64,000 nt of DNA, taken from the UHGV virus genome UHGV-0057547; one strand, written 5' to 3'. Shown here piece after piece: positions 30,007-63,473 of this stretch. The stretch's first letter is position 1. Each line of letters starts with the position of its first letter. This DNA comes from a virus. The notes beneath the pieces are model-generated. The model searched no databases. It saw only the letters and a program-made list of their open reading frames with translations, and was not told the DNA's origin. Both the position numbers and the translations under genes were made by a program.

Positions 30007-31417
30007 AATTATGCGTCCTATGTAAAGAAATTTGCATAGAAAATCTCCTTAATTGCAGGTAATTCCTAAAGCCTTACACCAAAACGGAAGGTGAAAACCT
30101 AAACGGCAACGGTACGAAAGTAGAAAAAACGTAAGGATGGATATAAGGTTAAATCCTAAGTATCCAAACATATTTATATATGTTAAAATGGATGTTCATG
30201 CAGGTAAGATTCTAAATTAAATTATTTTAAATACTTAACTTTTAATAAGATAAATTGTATAATATAAATAAAGAGAGGTGATAAAATGGCAAAAAAGAAA
30301 TCTCATGAGGAGTTTGTTAATGAATTAAATATAAAAAATCCTAATATAAAAGTATTGAATAAATATGTAAATGTGTCTACGAAAATAATGGTTAAATGTA
30401 TAATTTGTGGAAATGAATGGATGGCAATACCTGGTAGTTTATTAAATGGAACTGGGTGTCCAAAATGTGCAAATAAAAATAAATCAAATAAACAAAGAAA
30501 GACAAAAGAACAATTTATAGAAGAGATGAAAATTATTAATCCTAATGTTAAAATAATCGGTGATTATATTAATAATCATACGAAGATAAAATGTGAATGT
30601 TTAATATGTGGGAATATATATTTTATGATACCTAAAAATTTAAGGAAAGGGCAAAATTGTCCTGAATGTGCTATGAAACAAAGAGTATCTAAAAAATCTA
30701 AAATTCATGAACAATTTATAATTGAATTAAATGATATAAATAAAAATATTAAAGTATCAAATAAATATATAAATGCAAAAACAATCATGGAATGTTCTTG
30801 TGATATTTGTGGTCATAAATGGAAATCTAATGCTGATAATTTATTAAGAGGTCATGGGTGTCCAAAGTGTGCAATAGAAAATAGTAGAGGTGAAAATAAC
30901 CATAATTGGAATCCTAATCTTACACAAGAAGATAGAGAAAATAAAAGAAATTATATGGAATATAAAGAATGGAGAAAAAATTGTTATGAACGAGATGATT
31001 ATACTTGTCAAGTTACAGGGAAAAGAGGAGTAGAATTATGCGTACATCATTTATATTCTTATAATAAATATTATTGTTTAAGAACTGCATTAGATAATGG
31101 TATAACAGTATCTAAAGAAATACATGAATTGTTTCATAAAATATATGGACGAGGAGATAACACATTAGAACAATGGGAAGAATTTATTAAAAGTTTAGAA
31201 TAATTTAATATGAATCAAAGCTCAACGACTATTCCGTAAGGAAGTAAAACCACAAGCTATTGGTGGAAGAAAAGGGAGATACCTTAACAGATAATGCTGA
31301 AGGTGAAGAAATAGTCTACTCTCATATGAAAGTATGAGCAGTTTTGTATATATACAAAACGGATTAAGTGTAGCGAACTTAATTGAATATAAAGGATAAG
31401 AATCCCTCATCCCTTTG
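30007..31417 (+). mobile_element. Group I intron carrying an HNH-type homing-endonuclease ORF
   Basis: P1 and P2 hairpin ctatg..catag; conserved 5' core; P7 elements caacGACTA ... gaaATAGTCTa; 3' end inferred from frame (ccctttg|g). Confidence 0.6.
30286..31203 (+). CDS. Intron-encoded homing endonuclease: three zinc-ribbon repeat modules plus C-terminal HNH domain
   Basis: Repeats CxxC...GxGCPKC; C-terminal CQVTG...CVHHL..YN...DNG motif; own promoter and RBS. Confidence 0.6.
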   Translation: MAKKKSHEEFVNELNIKNPNIKVLNKYVNVSTKIMVKCIICGNEWMAIPGSLLNGTGCPKCANKNKSNKQRKTKEQFIEEMKIINPNVKIIGDYINNHTKIKCECLICGNIYFMIPKNLRKGQNCPECAMKQRVSKKSKIHEQFIIELNDINKNIKVSNKYINAKTIMECSCDICGHKWKSNADNLLRGHGCPKCAIENSRGENNHNWNPNLTQEDRENKRNYMEYKEWRKNCYERDDYTCQVTGKRGVELCVHHLYSYNKYYCLRTALDNGITVSKEIHELFHKIYGRGDNTLEQWEEFIKSLE

Positions 31418-31696
31418 GTCATATCAAGAAATATGTATGAATTATTTACTCCTTAGAAAAGATAGAGGAAATGTTCAACTTCAAAAAAGTATTCAAGAAA
31501 TTAATAGTAAATTACAAGCTGACTGTAAAATGAAATTATCACAAATAGATAATGATGATGATGACAATGCTTGTTTTGGGAAATTTATAGATAGAATAGA
31601 ATTATATGAACCATGTAATAAAAAGTTACCATTTTTTGAAGATATAGATGGAATAAGACAATACTTAAAACGATGGAAACAAAAAGCCACGACTGT
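31418..31696 (+). CDS. Terminase small subunit-like protein, exon 2
   Basis: Only open frame; phase matches exon 1 (2-nt carry-over); P1 ctgt|at with IGS atatgcag. Confidence 0.4.
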
Positions 31697-32088
31697 ATAG
31701 AAATATGCAGTGGACACAGATTTAATTGCAGGTAATTCCTAAAGCCTTACACCAAAACGGAAGGTGAAAACCTAAACGGCAACGGTACGAAAGTAGAAAA
31801 AACGTAAGGATGGATATAAGGTTAAATCCTAAGTATCCAAACATATTTATATATGTTAAAATGGGTGTTCATGCAGGTAAGATTCTAAGTGATAATTTTA
31901 TATCATATGAATAAACTTCAACGACTAGAATGCAAATTCGTAGGGTGTAAGCGATTGACACTCGAAAAGGTCTGCCCTTAACAGGTAATGCTGAAGGTGA
32001 AGAAATAGTCTAGTCACTCTAGGAAACTAGGTGCTTAGAATTAACTAAGGTTTATAGTGTAGCGACTATAAGTAAATATTAACGTTTG
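31697..32088 (+). mobile_element. ORF-less group I intron (3' boundary 32088 or up to 32110)
   Basis: 5' half nearly identical to 30031-30285; contains caacGACTAg and ATAGTCTAg P7 strands; ends aacgtttg. Confidence 0.55.
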
Positions 32089-32110: not shown

Positions 32111-32259
32111 GAAATTAGCTAAAAATGATGTTTTAGGGGGAGAAGAAGGAATAGAAGATTATGAAGATGTAGATAAAATATACAATGAACAAAATAAGAA
32201 TAATACCGAAGTAGAAAATGAAGTAGAAGATGAAGTAGGTGAGGAAAACAATGACAAGT
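32111..32259 (+). CDS. Terminase small subunit-like protein, exon 3 (acidic C-terminus); start uncertain
   Basis: 53-codon open frame ending in a stop that overlaps the ATG of the next gene; boundary chosen by frame. Confidence 0.3.
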
Positions 32260-32401
32260 AGTCCAAAAGAAAATGTTGAAAAAGAAGAAATACTTTCCGA
32301 TGATGTCATGAAAAGTCCTCATAGAAAAAGAAGGAATTTATCCCAAAGAAAAAAAGATAGATTAAATGAAGGTATGAAAATATGGACTGCATTTTATAGG
32401 T
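32251..32401 (+). CDS. terL: Terminase large subunit, exon A
   Basis: ATG overlapping upstream stop; exon ends ttttatagg-t with P1 pairing to IGS gctta. Confidence 0.5.
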
Positions 32402-32747
32402 TAAATATTTAGCTTATTTTATTAGGTAACTAATAATCTAAACCCTTTGAATTGCTGGAAAGGACTTAGAGCCTATTGAACTACAACGTGACTAGAAATG
32501 GTGAGCGTGAATGTTTAAAAATCAATAGGATTGTTTAATCAGCAGGTAAGATTCTAAATTGCTATAAACAATATGAATAAACTTCAACGACTAGAGTTTA
32601 AACTCGTAGGCTACAAGTTATTGGTAGTCGAAGCGGAGGGCATCCTTTCATAGGATGAAGATATAGTCTGTTCTTATATGAAAATATAAGTAGTTCTTTA
32701 TTTAATAAAGAACAGTATGTATGTAGCGAATACATATGAACATTTAG
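32402..32747 (+). mobile_element. ORF-less group I intron
   Basis: Conserved 5' core (aattgctggaaagg...cagcaggtaagattctaa) directly joined to 3' core (aataaacttcaacgactag...gatatagtctg). Confidence 0.6.
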
Positions 32748-32863
32748 TAAACATCCATAGATTCGCACTGGATTTTTTGGGACTTAATTTATATCCGTTC
32801 CAAATTATATTGCTTTATATGATGAATATAATGTATAGCACTTGCCTAATATGTGCAAGGGGT
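32748..32863 (+). CDS. terL: Terminase large subunit, exon X (LxLxPFQ motif and start of P-loop ..CARG)
   Basis: Open in the phase set by exon A; ends ggggt before a P1/IGS gctcc and P2 hairpin. Confidence 0.5.
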
Positions 32864-34032
32864 AAATAGATATGCTCCATTATATAGAAATATATAATTA
32901 AAAATCAATCAAAATCGGTAAAAGTCTAAGTTTAATATTTACATTTTTTAGGAATATAAGTATAATATATAAAAGGGGTGAGATTAAATGGGTAAAATAA
33001 TAAATAAATATGATAGAATAGGTGAAACATCGATATCAAAAGAAGGATATGAAATGAAAATAATTGAATATATTGATGCAAGACATATTCTAATAGAATT
33101 TCAAGATGAACATAAAACTAGGTTAATGTGTCAATATGGTGACTTTAAATGTAGAAAAAATATTAAAAATCCATATCATCCAGCAGTATATAAAATAGGG
33201 TATTTGGGACAAGGTAAATATAATAAAAAAAATTATCAACGTATATATTGGACATGGAAAGATATGCTGAGAAGATGTTATAGTGAAGAGTACTTAAAAA
33301 GAGAACCTTCTTATAGAGGCTGTTGTGTTTGTGAAGAATGGCATAATTTCCAAAACTTTGCTAAATGGTATGAAGAAAATTATTATGAAGTTGAGAATCA
33401 AAGAATGCATTTAGATAAAGATATACTTGTAAAAATGAATAAAACATATAGTCCACAAACTTGTATATTTGTTCCACAAATAATTAATAGTTTATTTATA
33501 ACATCTAAGGCTATAAGAGGAGAATATCCTATTGGCGTTTCAAGAAAACAGAATAAATTAATTGTTCAAATTAATAAATATGATGAAAATATGAAAAAAT
33601 CAAAATATACAATGGTAAAAAAATTTGAAATAGAAGAAGTAAATGAAGCATTTTTTTGCTATAAAACAGAAAAAGAAAATGAAATAAAGAAAAGAGCCGA
33701 TTTATTTAAAGAATATATTCCAAAAAAATTGTATAATGCATTATATAAATATAAAATTGAAATAACAGATTAAATATGATAATACCGAGGTAAGATAGAA
33801 AATTAAAAAGTTCTATCCACTGTAGAGCATAGAGATTGAACCTTTGTAAGAACTATTATACAATAGTTCTTTTTTAATTGCAAAGAATAAAATATCTCCA
33901 AGAGTGATTGACACCTTACTATTAAGTTAAAGGTGAAAATATATGCCATACTGAGCTAGAATTGACTAGCTGATGAAAATGAGGGAAACCTCCAGAGGTT
34001 AAGATAAAAAACTTAACGTTAATAATGAATAG
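32864..34032 (+). mobile_element. Type-2 (T-family) intron carrying an HNH endonuclease ORF; 3' part is element T1
   Basis: P1 ggggt/gctcc, P2 attatatagaaatatataat, caaaatcggt block, internal promoter, ORF, then about 270-nt T1 element. Confidence 0.5.
32988..33773 (+). CDS. Intron-encoded HNH-family homing endonuclease (Bacillus-phage type: WTW-DML-RRC...CCVCEEW..F..F..W...LDKDIL motif)
   Basis: Diagnostic conserved motif set read directly; own promoter and RBS aaaagggg. Confidence 0.55.
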   Translation: MGKIINKYDRIGETSISKEGYEMKIIEYIDARHILIEFQDEHKTRLMCQYGDFKCRKNIKNPYHPAVYKIGYLGQGKYNKKNYQRIYWTWKDMLRRCYSEEYLKREPSYRGCCVCEEWHNFQNFAKWYEENYYEVENQRMHLDKDILVKMNKTYSPQTCIFVPQIINSLFITSKAIRGEYPIGVSRKQNKLIVQINKYDENMKKSKYTMVKKFEIEEVNEAFFCYKTEKENEIKKRADLFKEYIPKKLYNALYKYKIEITD

Positions 34033-34135
34033 TTATCGAAATCGTATATGACAGCAATATTCCTTTGTTGTAAAGCAATATTATATCCAAATAGTTTAAT
34101 TGTAGTTTCTTGTTCAACTAAGGAGCAAGCGAGAT
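34033..34135 (+). CDS. terL: Terminase large subunit, exon e34 (P-loop ..LSKSYMTAIF.. and LIVVSCSTKEQAR Q-motif)
   Basis: Joins exon X in phase to give ICARGLSKSY Walker A-like loop; ends gcgagat with IGS gtctc. Confidence 0.5.
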
Positions 34136-35567
34136 ATAATGTCTCCTATATTAAGTGATTAGTATAGCAAATCTTTTGAATTGCTGGAAACTCCTAAAGC
34201 TCAATTCACTACAACGTAAGGTTAAATCCTAAGCGTGAATGTTACGAAAGTAGAAAAAAGTAATTGAGATGGTATAAGGTTAAATCCTAAGTACTTTTAC
34301 AATGGACAATCAGCAGGTAAGATTTATATTTATTTTACTTTACTTTTAATAATTAATTTCGTATAATTTAAGTAAATGGAGGTGAAATATTATGGCATGG
34401 AAATATGAAGATGTGAAAAAGTATGTAGAATCATTTGGTTATAAATTAATATCAAAAGAATATAAGACTTGTAAAGATAAACTTCATTTAATGTGTCCTA
34501 ATGAAAGTGATTTTATTGTAAGATTTGATAATTTTAAAAATGCTAAACAACGTTGTAAATGTGATAAATGTAAAGGTAGAAATCCAAGAATGTTTTCTTA
34601 TGAATATGTAAAAGAATACATAGAAAAAGAAGGGTATAAATTAATATCAAAAGAATACAATGGAAATAAAAAACGTATAGAATTAGAATGCCCAAATGGT
34701 CATAAATGGAAAGTAAGATTTACTGATTTTAAAAATGGAAGAAGATGTTATTATTGTTCTTGTTGTTATAAACCTACCATTGGAGAAATTAGAATGAGAT
34801 TATCAAAATATGGTTATACATTGTTATCTGAAGAATATAAAAATGCAAATGAAAAAATTAATGTAAAATGCCCTAATGGTCATAAATATCCTACTACATA
34901 TCATAATTTTGATAATGGTAAAAGATGTCCATACTGTTATAATAAATATAGTAAAGGTGAGTATAGACTTATAAATTTATTTAATAATTATAAAATAAAC
35001 TATAAACATCAATATATTTTTAATGATTGTAGAGATATAAATCCTTTGCCATTTGATTTTTATTTATATGATTATAATTGTTGTGTAGAATTTGATGGAG
35101 AAGGGCATTATGAACCTAGAAATTGGAATGGAGCTTCAGATGAAAAAGCAATAGAAACATATAAAATAACGGTATTACATGATAAAATTAAAACACAATA
35201 TTGTAAGGATAATAGCGTAAAACTCATAAGAATACCATATTGGGAATTTAATAATATAGAAAACATTATTTGTCAAGAATTAAATATTAAAAGAAAACAA
35301 AGAAGAAAAGGTAATAAATTAAAATAAATATGAATAAACTTCAACGACTAAGTATCCTAGTAGTCTAGGTAGAGGAAGAGGTCTTATATTAATAAGATTG
35401 TGATATAGTCTGCTCTCATGCGAAAGCATGAGCAGTTCATAAAAGAACGGATAGAATAGTAACGATATTCTATTGAACATAAGGAATCTTATAAAGGAGA
35501 AGATAGCTAAAGAGCTATGTTCTCAATCGAAAATGTTAAATAGAGAAATTGCTAAAGTAGTCACTGG
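34136..35567 (+). mobile_element. Group I intron carrying a Zn-ribbon/DUF559 homing-endonuclease ORF (3' end approximate)
   Basis: P1 gagat/gtctc, P2 ctatattaagtgattagtatag; conserved 5' and 3' cores flanking the ORF. Confidence 0.55.
34392..35327 (+). CDS. Homing endonuclease, Zn-ribbon repeat modules plus DUF559/Vsr-like PD-(D/E)xK nuclease domain
   Basis: Three modules YEYVKEYIE..GYKLISKEY...CPNGH...F..FKNG.RC; C-terminal PLPFDFYL...VEFDGEGHYE...KLIRIPYWEF. Confidence 0.6.
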   Translation: MAWKYEDVKKYVESFGYKLISKEYKTCKDKLHLMCPNESDFIVRFDNFKNAKQRCKCDKCKGRNPRMFSYEYVKEYIEKEGYKLISKEYNGNKKRIELECPNGHKWKVRFTDFKNGRRCYYCSCCYKPTIGEIRMRLSKYGYTLLSEEYKNANEKINVKCPNGHKYPTTYHNFDNGKRCPYCYNKYSKGEYRLINLFNNYKINYKHQYIFNDCRDINPLPFDFYLYDYNCCVEFDGEGHYEPRNWNGASDEKAIETYKITVLHDKIKTQYCKDNSVKLIRIPYWEFNNIENIICQELNIKRKQRRKGNKLK

Positions 35568-35631
35568 TACTAATGAAACAGTGGTTATCTTTAACAATGG
35601 TAGTACCATTCAAGTTTAATGCTTTGCACAT
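35568..35631 (+). CDS. terL: Terminase large subunit, exon e35 (boundaries approximate)
   Basis: Only open frame; phases fit e34 (1-nt) and e38 (2-nt carry-over); P1 gcacat/gtgtgt. Confidence 0.35.
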
Positions 35632-35877
35632 TGAGTAATTAGTGTGTATAACCGATTGAATTGCTTGTAAATCCTAAAGCTAACTAAACTACAACGTAAC
35701 CTGAAAAGGTAAGCGTGAATGTAGCGAAAGCAGAAAAAATTAGTTAGATGGTATATGGTTAAATCCTAAGTACTTTTACAATGGAAGTCTAGCAGGGAAG
35801 ATTCTAAAATTATTTAAATTAAATATTTGACTTTTAATAATATAAGTTGTATAATATAAATAAATGGAGGTGATAAT

Positions 35878-36834
35878 ATGTCAAAAATAATGTGGGATGA
35901 AAAATCAATAAAAAAATTTGTTGAGCAATATAATCATGAATTCATTGAAATTATAGAATTTAATAACATAAGAAGTTTAATAAAAATTAAATGTAAAAAT
36001 AAAAAACACAAACCATTTGAAATAAAATTTACATCATTTAGACAAACTATGCTAAAAAATGGAAATTCTTGCAAAGAATGTAAAAAAGAAGCAAAAATGT
36101 TAAAAAGAGAAGATGTAGAAAACCTAATTAGAGAAAGAGGACTTATTTGGCTAGAGGGAGAGTATATAAGTAATGATACAAAAAATTTATTAGTATGGTG
36201 TGGAAATATTAATCATGAACCATTTTTAACAAGTCAAAATTATATATTATGTAATAATGGTAATAGTTGCAAAAAATGTGGTATAGAAAATAATGCAAAT
36301 AACAAAAGACTTTCATATGAGTATGTATATAACTATATAAAAAATGAGGGTGATGAACTATTATCAAAAACTTATGTAAACAATTCACAAAATTTAAAAA
36401 TTAAATGTGGTAAATGTAATAATGTATTTGAAACTTCATTTGGGCACTATCAAAATAAAGATAGAAGATGCTTATGTAAAGCTCAATCAAGAGGAGAATA
36501 TGAAATTAAACGAATATTTGATAAATATAATTTAATTGAAAATGTAGATTATGAATGTCAAAAAAAATACGAAGGATTAATTGGGGTTGGTGGTAGAAAA
36601 CTTTCTTATGATTTCTATATCAATAATACATTAATAGAATATCAAGGTTCTTATCATGATGGAACTGCTAGAAAACAAACAGATGAAGGATATGAGATAC
36701 AAAAGGAACATGATAAAAGAAAAAAAGATTATGCTAAAAATAATAACATTAATTTATTAGAGATATGGTATTGGGACTTTAATAATATAGAAAATATACT
36801 TATAGAAAATTTTAATTTAAATAATAATGAATAA
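35878..36834 (+). CDS. Homing endonuclease, Zn-ribbon repeats plus DUF559/Vsr-like domain
   Basis: Same modular architecture as 34392..35327; C-terminal LSYDFYI...IEYQGSYHD...NLLEIWYWDF. Confidence 0.55.
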   Translation: MSKIMWDEKSIKKFVEQYNHEFIEIIEFNNIRSLIKIKCKNKKHKPFEIKFTSFRQTMLKNGNSCKECKKEAKMLKREDVENLIRERGLIWLEGEYISNDTKNLLVWCGNINHEPFLTSQNYILCNNGNSCKKCGIENNANNKRLSYEYVYNYIKNEGDELLSKTYVNNSQNLKIKCGKCNNVFETSFGHYQNKDRRCLCKAQSRGEYEIKRIFDKYNLIENVDYECQKKYEGLIGVGGRKLSYDFYINNTLIEYQGSYHDGTARKQTDEGYEIQKEHDKRKKDYAKNNNINLLEIWYWDFNNIENILIENFNLNNNE

Positions 36835-37086
36835 CCTTCAACGAACAAGTATCCTAGTAGTCTAGGTAGTGGTCGGTATCCTTAGTAAAGGATAATGATA
36901 TGTTCTGCTCTCATGTGAAAGCATGAGCAGTTTATGTGATTAATTAAAATTCACAAATAAACGGTATAAGGTATAACGAACCTTATATGAACACAAATGC
37001 AGTAAACGCTTCTCAAAATACAAGAGGTAAATTTTTCATATCACTTTACATTTTTTAATAATTAGAGTATAATATAAACAAAGGGG

Positions 37087-37956
37087 GTGATTGAATTGAA
37101 ATGGACTAAGGATATGGAGCAATACTTAATTGATAATTATAATAAATTAACTATTGAAGAATTAGCTAAAAATATAGGAGTAACAAAATCCTCAATAATA
37201 AATAAAGCTTTTTCATTAAAAATAACAAATAATGTTAAAAATAAAGATAGAGGAAATATTAATATATTTAAAAATATAAATTCAGAAGAAAGTGCTTATT
37301 GGTTAGGATTTATATATGCTGATGGTTATATAGTTAAAAGTGAAAATGATAAAAAACATCATAATTATGAATTAGGTATAGAACTTCAAGAATCTGATAT
37401 TTCTCATTTGAAAAAATTTAATAAAATATTTAATGATTATTATAAAATAAAAACAAGAATCAGAAAAATGGATTCATTGGATATTTTAAATGGAAATGAA
37501 GTTTCAAATAGATTAAATAAAACTTGTTTGATAAGAATATATAATAAAGAAATAGTTAATGATTTAATAAAAAATAATATTGTTCAAAATAAAACTAATT
37601 CAGATATATTTCCTATTATAGATGATGACAATATGTTTTTACATTTTTTAAGAGGATATATTGATGGCGATGGTTCTTATGTTGTTGATAGTAAAAATAG
37701 ATACATAATATCAATTCAAGGTAATAATAAAAAATGTTTTGAATTTATATCTAATAAGTTATTAACAAGTTTTAATATTAATTCATATATAACAAAAGAT
37801 AAAACAGGTTGGAAATTAAATATAAGAAAAAAAGATGATGTTTTAAAATTAATAGATTTAATGTTTAATAATTCAAATATTTATTTAGATAGAAAATATG
37901 AGAAAGTAAAAGATATGAAAAAAGCCGTCTTTAATAGAAATATTAAAGATAATTAG
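37087..37956 (+). CDS. LAGLIDADG homing endonuclease (double-motif, single-chain)
   Basis: Two LAGLIDADG motifs: LGFIYADGYI and LRGYIDGDGS; GTG start after RBS aaaggggg. Confidence 0.7.
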   Translation: MIELKWTKDMEQYLIDNYNKLTIEELAKNIGVTKSSIINKAFSLKITNNVKNKDRGNINIFKNINSEESAYWLGFIYADGYIVKSENDKKHHNYELGIELQESDISHLKKFNKIFNDYYKIKTRIRKMDSLDILNGNEVSNRLNKTCLIRIYNKEIVNDLIKNNIVQNKTNSDIFPIIDDDNMFLHFLRGYIDGDGSYVVDSKNRYIISIQGNNKKCFEFISNKLLTSFNINSYITKDKTGWKLNIRKKDDVLKLIDLMFNNSNIYLDRKYEKVKDMKKAVFNRNIKDN

Positions 37957-38280
37957 AGAACAAAATCGGTCATAGTAAATCGTAAGATTAAGCTGATAAG
38001 AGAGCCTAAGTCCTTATAGGATATGGTAATACCGAGGTAAGATAGAAAATTAAAAAGTTCTATCCACCGTAACGCATAGAGATTGAACCTTTGTGAGAAC
38101 TATTATACAATAGTTCTTTTTTAATTACAAAGAATAAAATATCTCCAAGAGTGTTCTCCACCTTATCATTAAGTTGAAGGTGAAAATATATGCTGGACTG
38201 GGTATGAATTGACATACCATAATGCGAGGAAACTCCTAGAACTAGAGGATAAAAAGCCTTTAGGATAACAAAACGTTAAG

Positions 38281-38325
38281 ATGCCATGTACTCGTGGTTG
38301 ATGAGTATAGAATGATACAAGGAGT
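38281..38325 (+). CDS. terL: Terminase large subunit, exon e38 (Walker B ..CHVLVVDEYRMIQG)
   Basis: Open frame; ends ggagt paired to IGS gctcc of the next intron. Confidence 0.45.
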
Positions 38326-39865
38326 AATATATAGCTCCCTATGTTTATAAAAAGCATAGAAAAACTCTTTAATTGCTGGAAACTCCTAAAGTCCTATAAA
38401 CTACAACATGATTAGAAATAATGAGTGTGAATGTTACGAAAGTAGAAAAAATTATAGGAATGGTATATGGTTAAATCCTAAGTACTTTTACAATGGACAA
38501 TCAGCAGGTAAGATTTATATTTATTTTACTTTACTTTTAATAATTAATTTTGTATAATTTAAGTAAATGGAGGTGATAAAATGTTAAAATATAATAATGA
38601 TTATATTATCAATTATATAAATGAAAATTATAAAAATTTTAAAATAGTAAGTATAGATGGTAATGGAAAGGAAGCTATTGTAACTTTATGGTGTGGCGTT
38701 AGTGGTCATAAACATATACAATGCACATTTGCTAATCTTTTATATAAAGATAGTTTTCACTGTAGAGAATGTAAAAAAGATGATAAGATAAACGAAATAA
38801 AAAAGATTATAGGTGATGAATATCAAATAATCTCAATAGATTATATTAGTAATGATTGGATAAGAAGTAGAGCTATATTATGGTGTGGAATAGAAGGACA
38901 TGAATATATTGATGTATCTTTTAAATCAATAATAAATGGAAATATTATTGGATGTAAATTATGTAGAAAAAATAAACATATATTAAAAATAAAAGAAAAT
39001 GTAGAAAAAGTTAATAAAAAATTAATAGAAGTAAAAAAATATAATGAAAAAGATTATCACAAATCAAGAATAATAGTATCTTGTGGTAATGAAAAACATG
39101 AATTAATAGAGACTTCTTTAAATAAAATTATAAATTCAAACGTTAAATGTAAGGATTGCATAAAAGAAGATAATATTAATAAAATGATGCTATATATAAA
39201 TTCTACTCAATACAAATTTAATAAAATTGTAAAATATTGTGAATCAGATTATATAAAAAGTATGGTAGAAATAACATGTCCAAAAGATGAAACCCACATA
39301 TTTACAATGAGATTTTCTAATTTTAAATATGAAGGTAAAAGATGTCCTCATTGTGGTATGACTTATGGTGAACAAGAAGTTGCAAATGTATTAAAAAGAT
39401 ACAATATAAAATATAAATTTCAATATAAATATAAAGATTGTAGATTTATAAATCCTCTTCCTTTTGATTTTTATTTACCTGATTATAACATATTAATTGA
39501 ATACGATGGTAAACAACATTATGAATCAGTAGATTTATTTGGTGGAGAAAAAGGTTTTAAATATACAAAACAAAATGATGGAATAAAAAATCAATACTGT
39601 AAGAATAATAATATAAAATTAATAAGGATACCATATTGGTGTTTTAATAATATAGAAGAAATATTAATTAAAGAATTAAAAGTAAACATAAATAAATATG
39701 AATAAACTTCAACGACTAGAACGTAAGTTCGTAGGGTGTAAGTGATTGACACTCGAAATGGGAGTTACCTAATAATAGGTAGTGATATAGTCTAGTCTCA
39801 TATGAAAGTATGAGCAGTTCATAAGAGAACGTACATAACGTAGCGAATTATGTAGAATATAACGG
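38326..39865 (+). mobile_element. Group I intron carrying a Zn-ribbon/DUF559 homing-endonuclease ORF
   Basis: P1 ggagt/gctcc, P2 ctatgtttataaaaagcatag, conserved cores, P7 GACTA/TAGTC; ends ...gaatataacgg. Confidence 0.6.
38581..39705 (+). CDS. Homing endonuclease, Zn-ribbon repeats plus DUF559/Vsr-like domain
   Basis: Four Cys-pair modules; C-terminal PLPFDFYLPDYNILIEYDGKQHYE...NNIKLIRIPYWCF. Confidence 0.6.
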   Translation: MLKYNNDYIINYINENYKNFKIVSIDGNGKEAIVTLWCGVSGHKHIQCTFANLLYKDSFHCRECKKDDKINEIKKIIGDEYQIISIDYISNDWIRSRAILWCGIEGHEYIDVSFKSIINGNIIGCKLCRKNKHILKIKENVEKVNKKLIEVKKYNEKDYHKSRIIVSCGNEKHELIETSLNKIINSNVKCKDCIKEDNINKMMLYINSTQYKFNKIVKYCESDYIKSMVEITCPKDETHIFTMRFSNFKYEGKRCPHCGMTYGEQEVANVLKRYNIKYKFQYKYKDCRFINPLPFDFYLPDYNILIEYDGKQHYESVDLFGGEKGFKYTKQNDGIKNQYCKNNNIKLIRIPYWCFNNIEEILIKELKVNINKYE

Positions 39866-40021
39866 TTTTGATACATTAAACTCAGTATTAAGACCATTCT
39901 TAAACTGTGTTAGAATACCAAAATTTAAGAATAGAGATGATGGAAAATATGCAGATTATCCATCAGAGGAAAACCAAGAGATTTATTTGAGCAGTGCATT
40001 AAAACTAGTGCAAACTATGGT
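39866..40021 (+). CDS. terL: Terminase large subunit, exon e39
   Basis: 52-codon open frame in AT-rich DNA; phases consistent with both flanking exons. Confidence 0.45.
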
Positions 40022-40341
40022 GAAATGTAGATAGCTATAGTTGAGTATCAATCAAAATCGGTCATATGTATAGTGATATACATGGTAAGAAAGACTAAGT
40101 GTTAATTTAACATAAGTTGATACCGAGGTAAGTTAAGGAACTAAAAAGCCTTATCCACTGTAACGCATAGAGATTGAACCTTTGCAAGAACTATTATATA
40201 ATAGTTCTTTTTTAATTGCAAAGAATAAAATATCTCCAAGAGTGATTGACACACGCTACATTTATTGTGTGAAAATATATGCTGAACTTATAGGAAACTA
40301 TAAGAACTAAAGGATAAAAAGCCTTTAGGATAACAATTTGG
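40022..40341 (+). mobile_element. Standalone ORF-less T-family intron (element T3); 5' boundary 40022 or 40033
   Basis: P1 atggt/gctat, caaaatcggtcatatg block, about 300 nt, shares covarying hairpins with T1, T2 and T4; both boundary choices give a consistent terL frame. Confidence 0.45.
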
Positions 40342-41428
40342 GTTCGAGAATCATTGGAGTTATGACCTCTATTCTTCCCATGTTAAGAAAATGTTAGCAG
40401 GTGATGATTATTTTGTATGTAATTTACCTTATCAATTATCTGCTTATCATGGAATATTAACTAAAAAAAGAATACAAGATATTTTATCAGATGAGAATAT
40501 GTCGGAAATATCATTTATGATGGAATTTGAAGCATTATTTTATTCTGATAAAGATACTAGTTATTTTAAATCAAGTGACATATTACCTTGTAGAACATTG
40601 GAATATGCATGGTATCCTCCAACACCTGAGGAATATTATAGAAATAAAAATAAAGAGAAAAAGAGTTATCATTTGAAGAAATTAAATGATAAAGAACTTA
40701 GAATAATTAGTTGTGATATAGCCTTAATGAATAGTAAAAATGGACATGACAACGATAATGCCGTATTTACTTTTATAAGAAGTATTCCAAAGAATCAAAA
40801 TTATATATCACAAGTTTTATGGCAGGAAACCTATGATGGTTGTACAGCTAAACAATTAGCATTAAATATAAAAAGATTATATTTTGACACTCAAAGTGAT
40901 TATATAGTACTAGATACTGCCGGTAATGGGATATCTGTGTTAGATGAGTTAGGTGAATATACAACAGATGTAGAAAGAGGAATAGTTTATCCTCCATTGA
41001 AAGCAATGAATGATGAAAAATATGAAGAACGTTGTGGTTATTCTGAGGCACAAAAATCTATATTTTGTGTTAATGGTAACTCAAAGTTTAACCACGAAAT
41101 TGCAGTAACCCTTAAAACAGCATTTCAAAATAAAACCATTAGATTATTAAAAACACAATTTGAAGCAGATGACTTTATAGAAGGATATCATAAGATGTCT
41201 CCTAAAGAACAAGCTGACAAATTAATGCCTTATATTCAAACTTCTTTAATGCAAGATGAAATAACTCAATTGGAATATGAAATAAAAGATTCTTATATTA
41301 AACTTTATGAAACCACAGGTAAACGTAAGGATAGATATTCAAGTTTAGCTTATGGTAATTATTTTATAAGAGAAAGAGAAAAAAAATTAAAGAAAAAGAA
41401 AAAAGGTGGATTAGCTAATCTATGGTAG
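40342..41428 (+). CDS. terL: Terminase large subunit, final exon (C-terminal RNase H-like nuclease domain)
   Basis: RIISCDIALMNS..GHDNDNA, LDTAGNGIS and DRYSSLAYG catalytic-Asp regions typical of TerL nuclease domain. Confidence 0.65.
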
Positions 41429-56502: not shown

Positions 56503-59500
56503 GTGAGTGAATTTGATATAAGAATTGGTACGCAACTAGATACTAGTAAAGCGTTACAACAATTGATGGAATTCGTCAAAAAATATGACAATAAAGAAAA
56601 GATAAATATAGACATAGGCCAAACAAAAGGTGCTAATAACATAAAAAACACAACCAAAGCTATGAAAGAAATGCAAAAGATAGCTAAGGCGTTAGGAAGC
56701 ACAAAGATTGACATAGGTGGCAATATAGGTAAGGCTACTGGTGAAGCTACTAAATCATTAGAAAATAGTATAGACAAACAAGCCAAATCTATTGCCAAAA
56801 TAACTAGTAATGCACAAAGAGATTTAACTAAAGATGCTCAAAAAGGTATTGGGAATAGTCTTAAAGGTATCAATGCAGAAATGAAAGATACCCAAAGAAA
56901 TGTCGAGAGAATGATTAGTACTCTTGAACGAGCTAAGAAAGTTGAATTAATAGACCAAAAAGGTTTAGATGAAGGGTTAGCTAAATTAAAAGATATGAAA
57001 GCTAATCTTAATATAGGTAATATTGACAATGTAGAAAAAAAATTAGGGGAAGTAGCAAGTGACTATAAGAAATTAATGACAGATGCAACTAAGGAAGCAT
57101 TTAATAATGTTGAAGTATCAGGGTTATTAGAAGACTTAAAAGTTGTCAGAGAAGCTATGTCAGCTAAAAACATGGATTTAAGTGGTGTTGATACTTTAAT
57201 TTCTAAAGCTAAACAACTTACTTCTTTAAGTGTTGACCAAATGTTACAACAGTACAAAGAATTAAGACAAGTATTTAGTAAAGAATTAAAGATACCATTA
57301 GGTTTAAGTGGCATAATGAACGCTGAAACTGCAATTAAAAATGTTCTAGATTATAAAAACAAACTAACTGCTAAAGTTTCAGTTGAAACAAATTCAGAAC
57401 AAATAGATATTTTAAAAGATAAAATAATAAGATGTGATGAAGTTGTTGAACAACTTAGAGGAGATTTAAACTTAGTAGGTAGAAGTACAGCATTAAATTT
57501 AATGGAACAAGCTAATGAAAGAGAATTAGATACATTAAGCGCTAAATTAAAAAAATGTAAAAATGATTATGCTAGTTTAGAAAAAGAAAGAGAAAGATTA
57601 AATAAAGATAGTAGATACCTTGGAACAGAAGATTTAAACAACATAGAGAAACAATCATTAGCCATAAAGAAAAACCTTGATAGTTTAAATGTTGGAAATT
57701 TAAATACTGATAAAATAAATAAAGTTACTGGTGACATAGATAATTTAAGAAAAACAATAGAATCAACTGGTAATTCAGCTAAAAAATTAGATATAGAAGC
57801 AACAGTTAAAGTAGATATGAAAAATGCTCAAGACCAATTAAATGGTATGTATTCTGCTTTAATAAAATCTAATAAATCTACCGTAATGGTTAAAAAATAT
57901 AAAGATGAATTAGAAGGATTATTTGATTTATCTAAGACTAACCCAGGTGTAGCACTAGACAAAATAAGTGGTTTTATAGAAAAAGTAAATAAAGAAGCCA
58001 AGAATAAAGGTTTAGGTAAAATAACTGGTGGTTTAGACCAATACAAACAATACTTAAAAGATTATGAATCATTAGTTAAAAAAGCTAGTGGTACTACTGA
58101 TATTGGTTTTGCAAAAGCTTACAAATCAGAAGTTACACAAATAGAAAAAGCATTAGACCAATTAGAAAGTGGATTTAACCAAACTCAAAAATCTATGGCT
58201 AAATCTTTGAGATTAGAGTCAATTAATAAGAATACTCAAGAATTTATTAATCAAGTTGAGAAATCTATTAAGAAAACTCAAGAATATAAAAAAGAATTAC
58301 AAACTCTTAATAATGATATAAATTTTGATGGTCTTACTTCTAAATTAGGTCAAAAAGTCAAAGAAGAATTTGACGGAATGATTAATAAAACTAATCAATT
58401 AGAAAAAAGACTTGGCAATATGTTATCATCAGGTAACATAAATACTACTGAACTATCTAAGTTAAAATCAGAACTTGAAAGTACTTTTTCCGGACTTTCT
58501 AAACTTAAGGATACTAGTATAAAAATTAAAACTGATGAAACTGTATCAGGACTTAATAAAATCAAAAAAGATTTAGAAACATTAGGACAAGATACTAGTC
58601 AAATAGAAAGAGTTATTAACGCATTAAAAGAACTTAAAGCCAATTTCAATGGTGGTACAGCAGGTTATAAAGAATTAGCCAATGGAATAAAATCTATTGG
58701 AAAAGATAATAACTTAGAAAAACTAAATAGTTCTTTAGAAAAATCAGTTAAGAAATTTAATAACTTAGCTAAAGCTGTCGGAGAACTAAAGGTTAAAAAT
58801 ATAGGTAATATAGACCAAGGTGCTTTTCAATCTTTAGATAGTCAAGTTGCACGAATACAATCTCATATAGAAGGTTTAAATAAAAATGATATATCTTTAA
58901 TAGATGTTAAAAAAGTTGAAGCAGAAGTAAATGAATTAAGCAACTGTGTAGAAAAAATGAGTAGTGAATTAACTCAATATAGTAAATATTTGGAAGAATA
59001 TAAAAGATTATCTAGTCAAGCAGGTAAAACAAATGATGTTAATTTAGCTACAAAATATCAACAAGAAGCAGAAGGTATAAAAGGTGTATTAACTCAATTA
59101 GAAAGTGAGTTTACACAAGCTCAAAAATCTATTGCTCAAGGATTAAAAACTGATGCTTTCTCTAATGCTAATGAAAAAATGTCTTCTGAAATTAATAAAT
59201 CAATTAAAACAGTTGATAATCTTAAAGAAAAACTTAATACATTAGATAAAGATGTACATTTTGAAAATATGACATCTGAATTAGGTAAAGAATTAAATAG
59301 TCAATTTGATACTTTAGCTAATAAAGGTGAAGAATTAAAAGATAAATTAAATAAAATATTAGCATCTGATAACGTAGATATTTCTGCTTTAAGTAAAATT
59401 AAAAAAGAAATAAGCGAATTTGCAAGTGAAGTTAATAATTTAAAAAATTCTGCAATGGATAATGTTATTAGAGAATCTTTTGATAACATTAAAATACCTA

Positions 59501-61630: not shown

Positions 61631-62695
61631 TAATTGATTTGCCGTTTATATTAGAAATAATATAAATTATTAGAGGGCAAAATCGGTGAAGACTAAATAT
61701 TTTAATTTATTTACTTTTAATAAAAAATATGGTATAATAATATAAAATAGGAGGGGATATAATGAGAAGATTGAGTTATGAATATGTAAAAGAGTATATA
61801 GAAAATTTTGGTTATAAATTATTATCAAAAGAATATAAAAACAATAAAACTGAATTAGAAATACAATGTAATGATTGTGGGAATATATTCCATATGAGAT
61901 TTAACAATTTTAAAGATGGTAAACATAGATGTGAATGTAAGAGCAAACCATTAGTTTTGACATATGAATATGTTAAAAATTATATTGAATCATGTGGATA
62001 TAAATTATTATCAAAAGAATATAAAAATAATGCAACCTATTTATTGGTTTGGTGTGGAAATCCTAATCACAAACCTTATAAAGTTAAATTTAATAATTTT
62101 AAAGATTGTAATAGTAGATGTCCTGAATGTAATACAACTTCAAAAGGTGAAGAAAAAATAAAAGAAATTCTAATAAAATATAATATAAAATTTAATCAAC
62201 AATATTTATTTAATGATTGTAGAAATACAAGACCACTTCCATTTGATTTTTATTTACCACAGTATAATATTACAATAGAATATGATGGGAGACAACATTA
62301 TAAATTAGATTGTTTTAATATGAATTTATTAGATTTAATGAATTTGAAATATAATGATAATAAAAAAACACAATATTGCAATAATAATAATATAAAACTT
62401 ATAAGAATACCATATTGGGATTTTAATAATATAGAAAAAATACTTAAAAAAGAATTAAAAGTAAATTGAATAAAGTACAAGTTAATACCGAGATAACTTA
62501 TTAGATTACGAAAAGGCTAATAAGTATTGTAGAGCATAGAGGATGAATAAATATAACTCCTCCAAGAGTGTCCTCCATCCTAACGTAAAGACGAGGATGA
62601 AAATATATGCCATACTGAATTGGAATAGACCAATTGATGAAAATGAGGGAAACCTCCAGAGCATAAGATAAAAAGCTTATGGATAATAACAATAG
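61631..62695 (+). mobile_element. Type-2 (T-family) intron carrying a Zn-ribbon/DUF559 endonuclease ORF; 3' part is element T4
   Basis: P2 tttatattagaaataatataaa, caaaatcggtgaagactaa block, internal promoter, ORF, then T4 with covarying hairpins. Confidence 0.5.
61762..62469 (+). CDS. Homing endonuclease, Zn-ribbon repeats plus DUF559/Vsr-like domain (shortest paralog)
   Basis: PLPFDFYLPQYNITIEYDGRQHY...NNIKLIRIPYWDF. Confidence 0.55.
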   Translation: MRRLSYEYVKEYIENFGYKLLSKEYKNNKTELEIQCNDCGNIFHMRFNNFKDGKHRCECKSKPLVLTYEYVKNYIESCGYKLLSKEYKNNATYLLVWCGNPNHKPYKVKFNNFKDCNSRCPECNTTSKGEEKIKEILIKYNIKFNQQYLFNDCRNTRPLPFDFYLPQYNITIEYDGRQHYKLDCFNMNLLDLMNLKYNDNKKTQYCNNNNIKLIRIPYWDFNNIEKILKKELKVN

Positions 62696-62708
62696 AAATT
62701 ACGCTGGT
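62696..62708 (+). CDS. Tape measure protein 13-nt micro-exon (aaattacgctggt) between two introns
   Basis: Flanked upstream by T4 3' end and downstream by P1 loop/IGS gccag complementary to its ctggt end; frame depends on exact splice sites. Confidence 0.35.
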
Positions 62709-63099: not shown

Positions 63100-63473
63100 C
63101 AATTTCATCTGATGGTGTAACAGAAGCATTACAACGTGGTGGTTCTGTATTATCTAACTATGGAGTAGATTTAAAAGATTCCATTGCAATGATAACTGGA
63201 GCAAATGAATCTTTACAAGACCCTGCTCGTATAGGTAATGGTTTAAAATCTATAGCAATTAACCTTTCAGGTATTAAAACAAATGCACAAACAGGTGCTC
63301 TTGAATTAAATAAAACAGCAAAAGCATTACAAGAAACTGCTAAAATAGATATATTTACTGATAAATCTAAAACACAAGTTAAAGATATTGTTAGTATACT
63401 AGATGAAGTAAAAGATAAATGGGCTTCTTTGACTGATGTTGAACAAAAAGGATTATCAGAAGCCATAGCAGGT
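63100..63473 (+). CDS. Tape measure protein, further exon
   Basis: Open TMP-like frame from the intron end; exon ends gcaggt before another intron. Confidence 0.5.

What the first reader, a model, noticed from the sequence alone, without database searches (positions are those of the whole stretch)
33780..34055. Second family of ~280-nt structured elements (T1 here; T2 38020-38280, T3 40022-40341, T4 62475-62695)
Four copies share blocks: ataccgaggtaag..., a terminator-like hairpin gaactattatacaatagttcttttttaatt, tatctccaagagtg, ggtgaaaatatatgc. At least two hairpins covary between copies: gttaag/cttaac versus cataag/cttatg versus ctaaagg/cctttag, and gctag..ctagc versus ggtatg..atacc versus aattgg..ccaatt. 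T3 stands alone as a 300-nt intervening sequence with its own P1/P2 between two terL exons. T1 and T4 follow endonuclease ORFs that begin after a P1/P2 plus caaaatcggt block. The family shares agtgattgacac with the type-1 3' core but lacks an obvious GACUA/UAGUC P7. It may be a divergent mini group I intron, or a terminal domain that can act in composite introns.
Basis: seen in the sequence. Interest (0 to 1): 0.8.

Follow-up and report, generated by a model that had tools for sequence, protein, structure and literature searches.

The report
Second group I intron family in phage
The four repeated elements are the catalytic 3' portions of four complete, mobile group I introns that split a phage terminase gene and a tail tape-measure gene. 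They are an ordinary kind of element, but they belong to a widespread lineage that the standard Rfam group I model does not detect.

Summary
Exactly four copies exist in the window, all on the + strand.

Each "T element" is the P4'-to-omegaG part of a full group I intron.

Exact intron bounds:
- T1 32864-34032
- T2 37029-38275
- T3 40000-40340
- T4 61632-62695

Removing them restores continuous TerL and tape-measure sequence matching intron-less homologs. Closely related metagenomic phage contigs have empty T1 and T2 sites at exactly these junctions.

The "missing" P7 is GCAUA/UAUGC, in the same position and with nearly the same J6/7 and J8/7 flanks as GACUA/UAGUC in the type-1 introns.

A covariance model built here found more than 130 further copies in viral and bacterial contigs. 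Pairing is 98% and 28 of 32 pairs show compensatory changes. P3 and P4 covary across the ORF in 75 of 87 copies.

Rfam RF00028 detects none of 22 family members tested.

The "composite intron" idea is rejected. The neighbouring type-1 introns are separated from T1, T2 and T4 by real exons of about 105, 48-50 and 13 nt.

Verdict: a new member of a known kind (subgroup IA group I introns). Splicing is inferred, not shown.

The parts
32864..34032 (+). T1: complete group I intron (1169 nt) in terL, between codons ...C-A-R-G | L-S-K-S... (Walker A motif)
   Evidence: tblastn of intron-less TerL homologs places residue 90 (G) at 32863 and residue 91 (L) at 34033. 24 homologs read ICARGLSKS. Five of six closely related contigs have 0 nt between the same 30-nt flanks, and L252 has a 1169-nt insert. 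The 5' splice site is GGGGU|A, with the U.G pair formed with IGS GCUCC. The last base is G.
32874..32919 (+). T1 5' core: IGS/P1' 32874-32878, P2 with GAAA loop 32879-32898, P3 TCAATCA 32905-32911, J3/4 AAA, P4 TCGGT 32915-32919
   Evidence: Coordinates are and from the sequence. P3 pairs with TGATTGA at 33905-33911 and P4 with ACCGA at 33784-33788. The same long-range pairing is found in 75 of 87 relatives.
32988..33773 (+). T1 homing-endonuclease ORF (261 aa), inserted in the P5 region between P4 and P4'
   Evidence: PHROG 953 'HNH endonuclease', E 2e-54. No Pfam hit. A promoter-like site, TTTACA-17-TATAAT (11 of 12 matches), lies at 32938-32966 just upstream.
33784..34032 (+). T1 'T element': P4' 33784-88, P6 33794-33817, P7 33827-31, P7.1/P7.1a 33832-33898 (holds the terminator-like hairpin 33850-33879), P3' 33905-11, P8 33912-35, P7' 33942-46, P9 with inserted hairpin 33955-33992, P9.1 33998-34017, omegaG 34032
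   Evidence: Model R1 scores 154.9 bits, E 2.5e-30.
37029..38275 (+). T2: complete group I intron (1247 nt) in terL, between ...N-T-R-G | L-R-C-H-V-L-V-V-D-E... (Walker B motif)
   Evidence: Homologs read NTRGLRCH without interruption. Four of six related contigs have an empty site at exactly this junction. L247 and L249 carry a 263-nt ORF-less T-family intron there with the same IGS, GCCGTCTT.
37087..37956 (+). T2 LAGLIDADG endonuclease ORF (289 aa), sitting in the P1 loop. Its last ~35 nt run through IGS (37924-31) and P2 (37932-45), and its stop codon abuts P3 (37956-62)
   Evidence: Pfam LAGLIDADG_3, E 1.7e-14. Promoter-like site at 37045-37073, 11 of 12 matches. The position in L1 follows from the ORF-less allele in L247, where the IGS follows a 9-nt loop.
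38031..38275 (+). T2 'T element': P4' through omegaG (P6 38041-64, P7 38074-78, P7.1 38079-38145, P3' 38153-58, P8 38159-82, P7' 38189-93, P9/P9a 38201-35, P9.1 38242-63)
   Evidence: Model R1 scores 167.5 bits.
40000..40340 (+). T3: complete ORF-less group I intron (341 nt) in terL, splitting a Trp codon (gca u|gg) in LSSA-W-FENHWSY
   Evidence: 27 homologs read LSS[A/G]W....WSY. Splicing at 39999|40341 restores W, whereas read-through hits a stop after 8 codons. P1 is UGCAU|UA...UAGUGCA with U.G at the splice site, and it is recovered by the MFE fold (z = -4.1). In relatives the same site holds a 341- or 352-nt intron, or a 1185-1186-nt intron with a 263-aa ORF. Helices: P2 40013-42, P3 40048-54, P4 40058-62, P4' 40122-26, P6 40132-55, P7 40165-69, P7.1 40170-40236, P3' 40243-49, P8 40250-71, P7' 40278-82, P9 40288-40303, P9.1 40307-28.
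61632..62695 (+). T4: complete group I intron (1064 nt) in the tail tape-measure gene, between ...A-M-D-L-V | N-Y-A-G...
   Evidence: The intron-less Clostridioides phage AR1086-1 tape-measure protein reads ...NLTKFLDLSNYAGNNFAIT... without interruption. Phage LIBA2945 has an ORF-less T-family intron at the same codon. 5' core: IGS 61641-44, P2 61645-66, P3 61673-78, P4 61683-87. T element: 62487-62695, R1 111.8 bits. T4 lacks the P7.1a extension.
61762..62469 (+). T4 endonuclease ORF (235 aa) in the P5 region
   Evidence: PHROG 559 'HNH endonuclease', E 4e-57. PHROG 9084 'homing endonuclease' and PHROG 7140 'intron encoded nuclease' also match.
62696..62708 (+). 13-nt micro-exon (a-AAU-UAC-GCU-GGU, completing Val then N-Y-A-G) between T4 and the next (type-1) intron, which starts at 62709
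   Evidence: Protein continuity ...DLV-NYAG-NNFAISSDG... against AR1086-1 and LIBA2945. The type-1 core motifs follow at 62756, 62847 and 62889.

Best explanation
T1-T4 are the 3' catalytic portions (P4', P6, P7, P7.1, P3', P8, P7', P9, P9.1, terminal G) of four complete group I introns of subgroup IA type. Each has its own 5' portion upstream (P1 with internal guide sequence, P2, P3, J3/4 = AAA, P4).

Three of them interrupt the terminase large-subunit gene at its Walker A, Walker B and motif-III regions. One interrupts the tape-measure gene.

Inferred mechanism:
1. The transcript folds so that the upstream "CAAAAUCGGU" block pairs with the T element, forming the P3-P8 pseudoknot and the P4-P6 stack.
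2. The guide sequence pairs with the last exon bases to give a U.G wobble at the 5' splice site.
3. Exogenous guanosine bound in P7 (GCAUA/UAUGC) attacks that site.
4. The 3'-terminal G then takes the same pocket and the exons are ligated, restoring the reading frame.

T1, T2 and T4 carry endonuclease genes of three different families, placed in loops that tolerate insertions (P5 region or P1 loop). Each has its own promoter-like site and ribosome-binding site, and these genes presumably drive homing into empty alleles. T3 has no endonuclease gene, although relatives have one at the same site.

Shown here: the sequence family, the helices and their covariation, the exact exon junctions, and the presence/absence polymorphism. 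Inferred: self-splicing chemistry, guanosine binding and endonuclease-driven mobility.
For: **1. Exact excision restores the proteins.**
- Intron-less TerL homologs (66-71% identical) align without a missing or extra residue across the T1 and T2 junctions.
- Homolog motifs ICARGLSKS and LSSAW match the spliced product at T1 and T3.
- Intron-less tape-measure homologs are continuous across the T4 junction.

**2. DNA-level empty sites.** In six closely related contigs, the 30-nt flanks of T1 are adjacent (0 nt between them) in 5 of 6, and those of T2 in 4 of 6. Occupied sites hold 1169, 263, 341, 352 or about 1186 nt.

**3. Core helices.**
- RNAalifold on 8 sequences independently predicts P6, P7, P7.1, P7.1a, P8 and P9. 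24 of 39 pairs show compensatory changes.
- On 108 model hits (90 distinct rows), 98.3% of cells are paired and 28 of 32 pairs have double changes. 0 of 500 shuffles reach this. Slid controls give 29-46% paired.

**4. Long-range P3 and P4.** 75 of 87 distinct copies have, upstream, the reverse complement of their own P3', then AAAA or AAUA, then the reverse complement of their own P4'. The two controls give 10 and 11 of 87. More than 40 different P3/P3' combinations occur, and P4 covaries as UCGGU/ACCGA, ACGGU/ACCGU, ACGAU/AUCGU, UAGGU/ACCUA and UCGGG/CCCGA.

**5. Splice-site hallmarks.** All four copies have U at -1, paired as U.G with a guide sequence just 5' of P2, and G as the last intron base.

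**6. Parallel to the type-1 (RF00028) introns of the same window.** J6/7, P7, J8/7 and the P9-GAAA loop line up block by block.

**7. ORFs are endonucleases.** All three ORFs match endonuclease families.

**8. Family relatives split genes in the way introns do.** This is seen in phiCD211, LIBA2945, MissB1, Javan355, 6ec and ROSA.
Against: - No RNA data. Splicing, guanosine dependence and homing are inferred.
- Rfam RF00028 gives no hit on any T copy even at E <= 10. It also gives none on four phage relatives at E <= 1, and none on 14 IMG/VR relatives at the gathering score.
- The P5 region is variable and I did not model it.
- The guanosine-binding pair in P7 is assigned by analogy only. The first G-C pair is invariant in 90 of 90 rows.
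- In T2 the endonuclease ORF overlaps the IGS, P2 and the edge of P3, which could interfere with folding.
- The pair counts come from an alignment fitted to the model, which leans towards the structure. The independent RNAalifold result and the scripted P3/P4 and P9.1 tests do not share that bias.
Confidence: 0.93

Rival explanations
1. Composite or nested intron. The T element is a shared terminal domain that works together with the adjacent type-1 intron, or as a twintron, so that T plus type-1 is removed as one unit.
For: T1, T2 and T4 are each followed within 105, about 50 and 13 nt by a type-1 intron. The same tandem arrangement is seen in phiCD211-like tape-measure genes. Locus L010 has T, an RF00028 intron and another T within about 900 nt.
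Against: - The stretches between the introns encode residues conserved in intron-less homologs: LSKSYMTAIF...KEQAR, LRCHVLVVDEYRMIQG and NYAG. They must therefore stay in the mRNA.
- Every T copy has its own P1/IGS, P3, P4, P7 and terminal G.
- T3 and many relatives stand alone. Only about 7 of 96 distinct family members have a type-1-like core just downstream.
- Related contigs lack T1 or T2 at precise junctions.
Confidence: 0.03
2. Structured 3' UTR or terminator element of the endonuclease genes. It would stabilise or terminate their transcripts rather than act as a ribozyme. The terL and tape-measure fragments would then be separate polypeptides or pseudogenes.
For: T1 and T4 directly follow endonuclease ORFs. 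T1-T3 contain a hairpin followed by a U-run (33850-33879 and its copies). Public annotations of relatives call the split genes separate CDSs.
Against: - T3 has no ORF.
- In T2 the ORF lies 5' of P3, not next to the T element.
- P3 and P4 pairings span the ORF and covary in 75 of 87 copies.
- The hairpin has only 2 G-C pairs, is not called by the terminator scan, is absent from T4 and from about a third of relatives, and sits inside the covarying P7.1a stem.
- The exon fragments lack start codons and join into full-length conserved TerL only after precise removal.
Confidence: 0.02
3. True group I introns that are no longer autonomous ribozymes. Splicing in vivo would need a protein helper, for example the LAGLIDADG protein acting as a maturase or a host factor. 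Alternatively, some copies would be splicing-defective in this particular genome.
For: RF00028 does not recognise the core. There is only one P7.1 arm instead of P7.1 plus P7.2. The very AT-rich helices (29-35% GC) may fold weakly. Maturase-dependent group I introns with LAGLIDADG proteins are established in organelles (general knowledge).
Against: The core helices are 98% paired and strongly conserved across more than 100 copies. ORF-less copies (T3, LIBA2945, the 263-nt intron in L247) persist in essential genes, which argues that the RNA suffices or that any helper is not intron-encoded. terL is essential, so dead introns would be lethal.
Confidence: 0.1

Closest known systems
Subgroup IA2 group I introns of phages (T4 td/nrdB, SPO1, Staphylococcus phage Twort orf142), i.e. 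the 'type-1' introns of this window, matched by Rfam RF00028
   Same: - Same order of helices: P1-P2-P3-P4-P5-P6-P7-P7.x-P3'-P8-P7'-P9.
- J3/4 is AAA, and P4' is followed by 'GGUAAG'.
- J6/7 ends in AAC or AGA.
- J8/7 is GAARAUA.
- P9 is capped by GAAA.
- There is an extra arm between P7 and P3'.
- Endonuclease genes sit in peripheral loops, and the hosts are conserved phage genes.
   Different: - P7 is GCAUA/UAUGC instead of GACUA/UAGUC.
- P4 is UCGGU/ACCGA instead of GCUGG-type.
- There is one arm (P7.1, optionally extended) rather than P7.1 plus P7.2.
- The L6 and L9.1 loops are conserved and A-rich (AAUUAAAAAG and AUAAAAAG).
- RF00028 gives no hit on T copies, and model R1 gives no hit on type-1 introns at E <= 0.001.
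Group I introns of Bacillus cereus-group prophages in tape-measure and terminase genes (TMP-IVS3a/b, Term-IVS1/2; Tourasse & Kolsto 2008, PMC2504315), and the Staphylococcus phage ROSA intron
   Same: - Same host genes (tape measure, terminase large subunit).
- ORF-less and ORF-containing versions occur at one site, different introns occur at the same site, and endonuclease families vary.
- The ROSA intron, which that paper lists as the BLASTN match of Term-IVS2, scores 88 bits with my T-family model and has P7 GCGUA/UACGC.
   Different: I could not fetch the B. cereus sequences, so membership of TMP-IVS3 and Term-IVS in the T family is untested. The paper assigns its phage introns to IA1 or IA2 from drawn structures. 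I cannot place T in IA1 or IA3 with these tools.
Lactobacillus phage LL-H terminase intron (a terL gene annotated as joined from two parts, with an internal HNH endonuclease ORF168, in record NC_009554)
   Same: An intron in terL of a Firmicutes phage that carries an HNH endonuclease ORF (annotation).
   Different: Not the same RNA family. Model R1 finds nothing in the whole LL-H genome at E <= 1.

Membership tests
Group I intron | Conserved core topology with the P3-P8 pseudoknot: P3, P4, P5, P4', P6, P7, P3', P8, P7' in that order | tested here: met
   All helices are located in the four copies. P6, P7, P7.1 and P8 covary (98.3% of cells paired, 28 of 32 pairs with double changes). P3 and P4 pair across up to 3 kb in 75 of 87 copies, against 10-11 of 87 in controls.
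Group I intron | 5' splice site follows a U that forms a U.G wobble in P1 with an internal guide sequence | tested here: met
   The splice-site pairings are T1 GGGGU|...GCUCC, T2 AAGAGGU|...GCC(G)UCUU, T3 UGCAU|UA...UAGUGCA and T4 UGGU|AA...UUGCCG. Junctions were fixed independently by protein homology and by empty-site alleles.
Group I intron | Intron ends with a guanosine (omegaG) | tested here: met
   The last intron base is G in 4 of 4 copies...AAUAG|...AAACG|...AUUUG|...AAUAG|. The same holds in LIBA2945 and in the 263-nt L247 intron.
Group I intron | Guanosine-binding site in P7 | tested here: inconclusive
   P7 exists and covaries. Its first G-C pair and fourth U-A pair are invariant in 90 of 90 rows and are shared with type-1 P7. 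Which pair binds G cannot be decided from sequence.
Group I intron | Precise removal restores an uninterrupted, conserved coding sequence | tested here: met
   TerL is continuous at T1, T2 and T3 against intron-less homologs. The tape-measure protein is continuous at T4. Empty-site alleles show 0 nt between the flanks.
Group I intron | Guanosine-dependent self-splicing of the RNA | not testable with these tools
   This needs in-vitro transcription and splicing, or RT-PCR.
Rfam RF00028 (Intron_gpI) | Score at or above the gathering threshold of 50 bits | tested here: not met
   No match on T1-T4 even at E <= 10. None on four phage relatives at E <= 1. None on 14 IMG/VR relatives at the gathering score. 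Type-1 introns in the same window score 92.8, 45.7 and 25 bits. This is a limit of the model, not evidence against the fold.
Subgroup IA (Michel & Westhof classification; from general knowledge) | Extra helical element(s), P7.1/P7.2, inserted between P7 and P3' | tested here: met
   The P7.1 stem immediately follows P7. All five of its pairs show compensatory changes and 99.1% of cells are paired. An optional P7.1a extension is present in about two thirds of members.
Subgroup IA2 (td / Twort type) | Two separate arms, P7.1 and P7.2, and a core similar to RF00028 seed members | tested here: not met
   Only one arm lies between P7 and P3', and there is no RF00028 hit. The assignment to IA1 or IA3 is left open because no subgroup models are available.
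Mobile (homing) intron | Intron-encoded endonuclease, and presence/absence polymorphism at identical sites among related genomes | tested here: met
   Endonuclease ORFs are present in T1, T2 and T4. Sites are empty or occupied at identical junctions in six related contigs. Cleavage activity and homing themselves are not testable here.

The most novel reading that the evidence does not exclude
The T family is a distinct, widespread lineage of subgroup-IA group I introns that current curated RNA models do not represent.

Its features are a single P7.1 arm, P7 = GCAUA/UAUGC, and conserved A-rich L6 and L9.1 loops.

As a consequence, split terminase and tape-measure genes in many Firmicutes phages are annotated as separate CDSs. 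This is seen in phiCD211, LIBA2945, MissB1, Javan355 and 6ec.

In intron-dense genomes such as this one, T introns form tandem arrays with IA2 introns, separated by micro-exons as short as 13 nt. Correct joining of such arrays may need ordered or cooperative splicing.
Probability: 0.4. Interest if true: 0.45.

Novelty: new member of a known kind. Interest (0 to 1): 0.35.

Why it matters
**Practical.** The standard detector (Rfam RF00028) misses this lineage entirely: 0 of 22 members tested. Yet a simple model built from 8 sequences finds more than 130 copies in a sample of viral and bacterial contigs. Genes split by these introns are being annotated as fragments. A curated model would correct the annotation of terminase and tape-measure genes in many Bacillota phages and prophages.

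**Biological.** The family gives a clean natural experiment in intron mobility.
- The same three terL sites are empty, occupied by ORF-less introns, or occupied by introns with unrelated endonucleases, in near-identical gut phage contigs.
- A terL gene carrying seven introns from two families, with micro-exons of 13-50 nt, is a good system for asking how many ribozymes in one transcript fold and splice without exon skipping.

None of this changes what is known about group I chemistry.

Tried and rejected
- **Wrong first boundary for T3.** I first took T3's 9-bp helix AACUAUGGU/GCUAUAGUU as P1, with the splice site at 40021|40342. Homologs showed 8 extra residues. The true junction is 39999|40341, restoring Trp, and that helix is P2.
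- **Wrong first boundary for T4.** I first read the exon after T4 as continuing for about 40 nt. The reading frame and the homologs show it is only 13 nt.
- **Full-length T-element model.** I modelled P4' to P7' (153 positions) and tested P3/P4 and P9.1 by script instead.
- **Rfam.** It gave no matches to T at any threshold.
- **Genome-collection pattern scan.** It returned mostly chance matches. Only about 10 of 80 loci were confirmed by the model, mostly Bacillota. I make no claim about a wide taxonomic range.
- **LL-H terL intron.** It is not a member of the family.
- **Literature searches.** Searches for P7.1a and for phiCD211 introns gave nothing useful. I could not settle IA1 versus IA3.
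- **Terminator reading of the P7.1a hairpin.** Not supported by the scan.
- **T plus type-1 adjacency as a family-wide rule.** Rejected: about 7 of 96 members.
Full report
**Observation**

The four copies are real and specific. Each quoted block (CAAAATCGGT, ATACCGAG, GCATAGAG, CCAAGAGTG, AAATATATGC) occurs exactly four times in the 64 kb window, on the + strand and in the same order. The T parts are 59-82% identical pairwise.

The window is an AT-rich phage region with no close relative among deposited phages. Only short 80-90% matches appear, to intron cores of Staphylococcus, Enterococcus and Bacillus phages.

Rfam RF00028 recognises only the other ("type-1") introns: 92.8 bits at 32392-32690, 45.7 bits at 31687-32033 and 25 bits at 31179-31338. 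It gives nothing on T1-T4 even at E <= 10.

**Exact boundaries**

I assembled a putative spliced TerL and retrieved homologs. I then ran tblastn of intron-less homologs (66-71% identical) against the window.

| Site | Last exon position | Next exon position | Residues joined | Intron |
|---|---|---|---|---|
| T1 | 32863 | 34033 | ...ICARG (90) / LSKS... (91) | 32864-34032 |
| T2 | 37028 | 38276 | NTRG / LRCHVLVVDE | 37029-38275 |
| T3 | 39999 | 40341 | LSSA-W-FENHWSY (gca u\|gg) | 40000-40340 |
| T4 | 61631 | 62696 | ...AMDLV / NYAG... | 61632-62695 |

- At T3 my first junction gave eight extra residues. Homologs read LSS[A/G]W....WSY (27 sequences), which fixes the junction so that the Trp codon is rebuilt.
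- T4 lies in the tape-measure gene (ORF 56503-61665). Intron-less Clostridioides phage AR1086-1 reads ...DLSNYAGNNFAIT... without interruption. Phage LIBA2945 has an ORF-less relative of T4 at the same codon.
- T4 is followed by a 13-nt exon (62696-62708) and then a type-1 intron.

Six contigs from closely related phages clinch the junctions (they share the terL 3' exon product, which is 98% identical to the window's). With 30-nt flanks as probes:
- The T1 site is empty (0 nt between the flanks) in 5 of 6 and holds a 1169-nt insert in one.
- The T2 site is empty in 4 of 6 and holds a 263-nt ORF-less intron in two.
- The T3 site holds 341, 352 or about 1186 nt. The longer versions carry a 263-aa ORF.

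**Structure**

The upstream "caaaatcggt" block is P3-J3/4-P4. It pairs with the T element.
- P3/P3': T1 and T3 TCAATCA/TGATTGA, T2 GAGAAC/GTTCTC, T4 GAGGGC/GTCCTC.
- P4/P4': TCGGT/ACCGA.

The rest of the structure is as follows.
- P7 is GCATA/TATGC.
- Between P7 and P3' lies one arm, P7.1. In T1-T3 it is extended (P7.1a) and holds the "terminator-like" hairpin.
- P8, P9 (GAAA loop) and P9.1 follow.
- P1 forms a U.G pair at each 5' splice site, using a guide sequence directly 5' of P2.
- Each intron ends in G.
- An unconstrained fold of T3 recovers P1, P2, P3, P7.1a, P8, P9 and P9.1 (z = -4.1).

**Relatives and covariation**

A blastn search of deposited phage genomes found T-like sequence splitting tape-measure genes in phiCD211, LIBA2945, Streptococcus phages MissB1 and Javan355, and Staphylococcus phage 6ec. 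Endonuclease genes sit inside some of these.

RNAalifold on 8 sequences predicted P6, P7, P7.1, P7.1a, P8 and P9, with 24 of 39 pairs compensated.

I built a covariance model of P4' to P7' (R1).
- A pattern scan of IMG/VR brought in 118 loci.
- R1 found 108 hits in the first 100 sources and 33 more in the next 100.
- In the window it hit only T1-T4.
- On 90 distinct rows, 98.3% of cells are paired, 28 of 32 pairs show double changes, 0 of 500 shuffles reach this, and slid controls give 29-46%.
- P7 itself shows C-G to A-U and A-U to G-C changes.

That alignment is fitted to the model, so I added two independent scripted tests.
- **P3/P4:** 75 of 87 distinct copies carry, upstream, the exact complement of their own P3', then AAAA or AAUA, then the complement of their own P4'. 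Controls give 10-11 of 87. More than 40 P3 variants and five P4 variants occur.
- **P9.1:** 84 of 92 have a perfect 6-bp stem around the RUAAAAAR loop, with 46 different stems. None pair when slid.

**ORFs**

- T1's ORF matches PHROG 953.
- T4's ORF matches PHROG 559. Both families are named HNH endonuclease, and T4's ORF also matches "homing endonuclease" and "intron encoded nuclease" families.
- T2's ORF is LAGLIDADG.

The three best promoter-like sites in 32700-40500 (11 of 12 matches) lie directly upstream of intron ORFs.

T2's ORF sits in the P1 loop. The 263-nt allele in L247 has the same guide sequence, GCCGTCTT, after a 9-nt loop.

**Composite-intron idea**

The stretches between T1, T2 or T4 and the following type-1 introns encode conserved residues, so they are exons. 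T and type-1 occupancy varies independently among relatives. Adjacency is seen in only about 7 of 96 family members.

**Comparison with known families**

The architecture matches group I subgroup IA, which has an arm between P7 and P3'. It parallels the IA2-type introns of the same window block by block. It differs in P7 and P4 sequence and has one arm instead of two.

RF00028 finds 0 of 22 members tested.

The Staphylococcus phage ROSA intron is a member (88 bits). Tourasse & Kolsto 2008 (PMC2504315) list ROSA as the match of a B. cereus prophage terminase intron. They describe IA1 and IA2 introns in tape-measure and terminase genes. Members of this lineage have therefore very probably been recognised as group I introns before. 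The LL-H terL intron is not a member.

I could not decide between IA1 and IA3.

**Verdict**

These are genuine, very probably functional, mobile group I introns. They are a new member (lineage) of a known kind. Interest is modest for the RNA itself and higher for the context: seven introns in one terL gene, at least 15 group I introns in 64 kb, micro-exons, and site polymorphism.

Noticed in passing
window 32251-41428: The terminase large-subunit gene is split into 8 exons by 7 group I introns. Four are type-1 (about 32402-32747, 34138-35475, 35617-36989, 38324-39860) and three are T-type (T1, T2, T3). Some exons are only 39-50 nt long (36990-37028, 38276-38323). The type-1 splice sites are approximate.
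   Followed up: partly
window 20795-63100: Type-1 core motifs (AATTGCNGG, GCAGGKAAG, TTCAACGACTA) mark about 11 type-1 introns, with 5' cores at 30051, 31724, 32450, 34179, 35659, 38371, 42410, 45142, 47793, 53296 and 62756. Together with the four T introns this gives at least 15 group I introns in 64 kb. Only one of them passes the Rfam gathering score.
   Followed up: partly
window 62696-62708: A 13-nt micro-exon lies between the T4 intron and a type-1 intron in the tape-measure gene. The last 5 nt (CUGGU) form the downstream intron's P1 with GCCAG. Splicing order and the risk of exon skipping are open questions.
   Followed up: partly
window 32938-32966, 34339-34367, 35827-35855, 37045-37073, 38530-38558: Near-consensus sigma-70-type promoter-like sites (10-11 of 12 matches), each followed by a GGAGG-type ribosome-binding site, sit inside introns just upstream of every endonuclease ORF. 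This suggests the endonuclease genes are transcribed independently of the host gene.
   Followed up: no
window 37924-37962: The 3' end of the T2 LAGLIDADG ORF runs through the intron's guide sequence and P2. Its stop codon abuts P3, so translation and ribozyme folding compete for the same RNA.
   Followed up: no
window 33903, 40241 (T1, T3) and 39741, 43552 (type-1): The identical 12-mer AGTGATTGACAC occurs in two T introns (P3' plus the start of P8) and in the P7.2 loop region of two type-1 introns. It is too long to expect by chance, and its cause is unexplained (recombination between families, or a shared tertiary contact).
   Followed up: no
window 63470-64000: The tape-measure reading frame stops at 63482. 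It is followed by a promoter-like TATAAT, a GGAGG site and an ORF from 63571 containing 'LGFWFADGYV', which looks LAGLIDADG-like. This is probably yet another intron with an endonuclease, running off the end of the window.
   Followed up: no
L247-L252 (ENA metagenome contigs of 48-210 kb): The closest relatives carry genes with Pfam YonG, YonD, YonB, YomX, YomW and YomV families (Bacillus SPbeta-type proteins). The window therefore comes from a large SPbeta-like phage. Intron and endonuclease content differs between near-identical contigs at most sites.
   Followed up: partly
L010 1707-2594 (IMG/VR UViG_2740892352_000003); L001 2440-3010 (phiCD211): phiCD211-like tape-measure genes carry a T-type intron, an RF00028-type intron and (in L010) a second T-type intron within about 900 nt. 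In GenBank the gene is annotated as two separate tape-measure CDSs plus one Intron_gpI feature. The T-type intron is not annotated.
   Followed up: partly
window 33801-33810 / 34004-34011 and equivalents in T2-T4: Two loops of the family are conserved and similar to each other: L6 AAUUAAAAAG and L9.1 AUAAAAAG. They may be tertiary-contact modules specific to this lineage.
   Followed up: no
L250 6402-6461 versus window 32855-32863: The empty-site allele at T1 reads ...AGGGGG|UUA..., whereas the intron-bearing allele reads ...AGGGGU|. This is a synonymous change that creates the U needed for the U.G pair at the splice site, as expected from co-conversion or selection after insertion.
   Followed up: no
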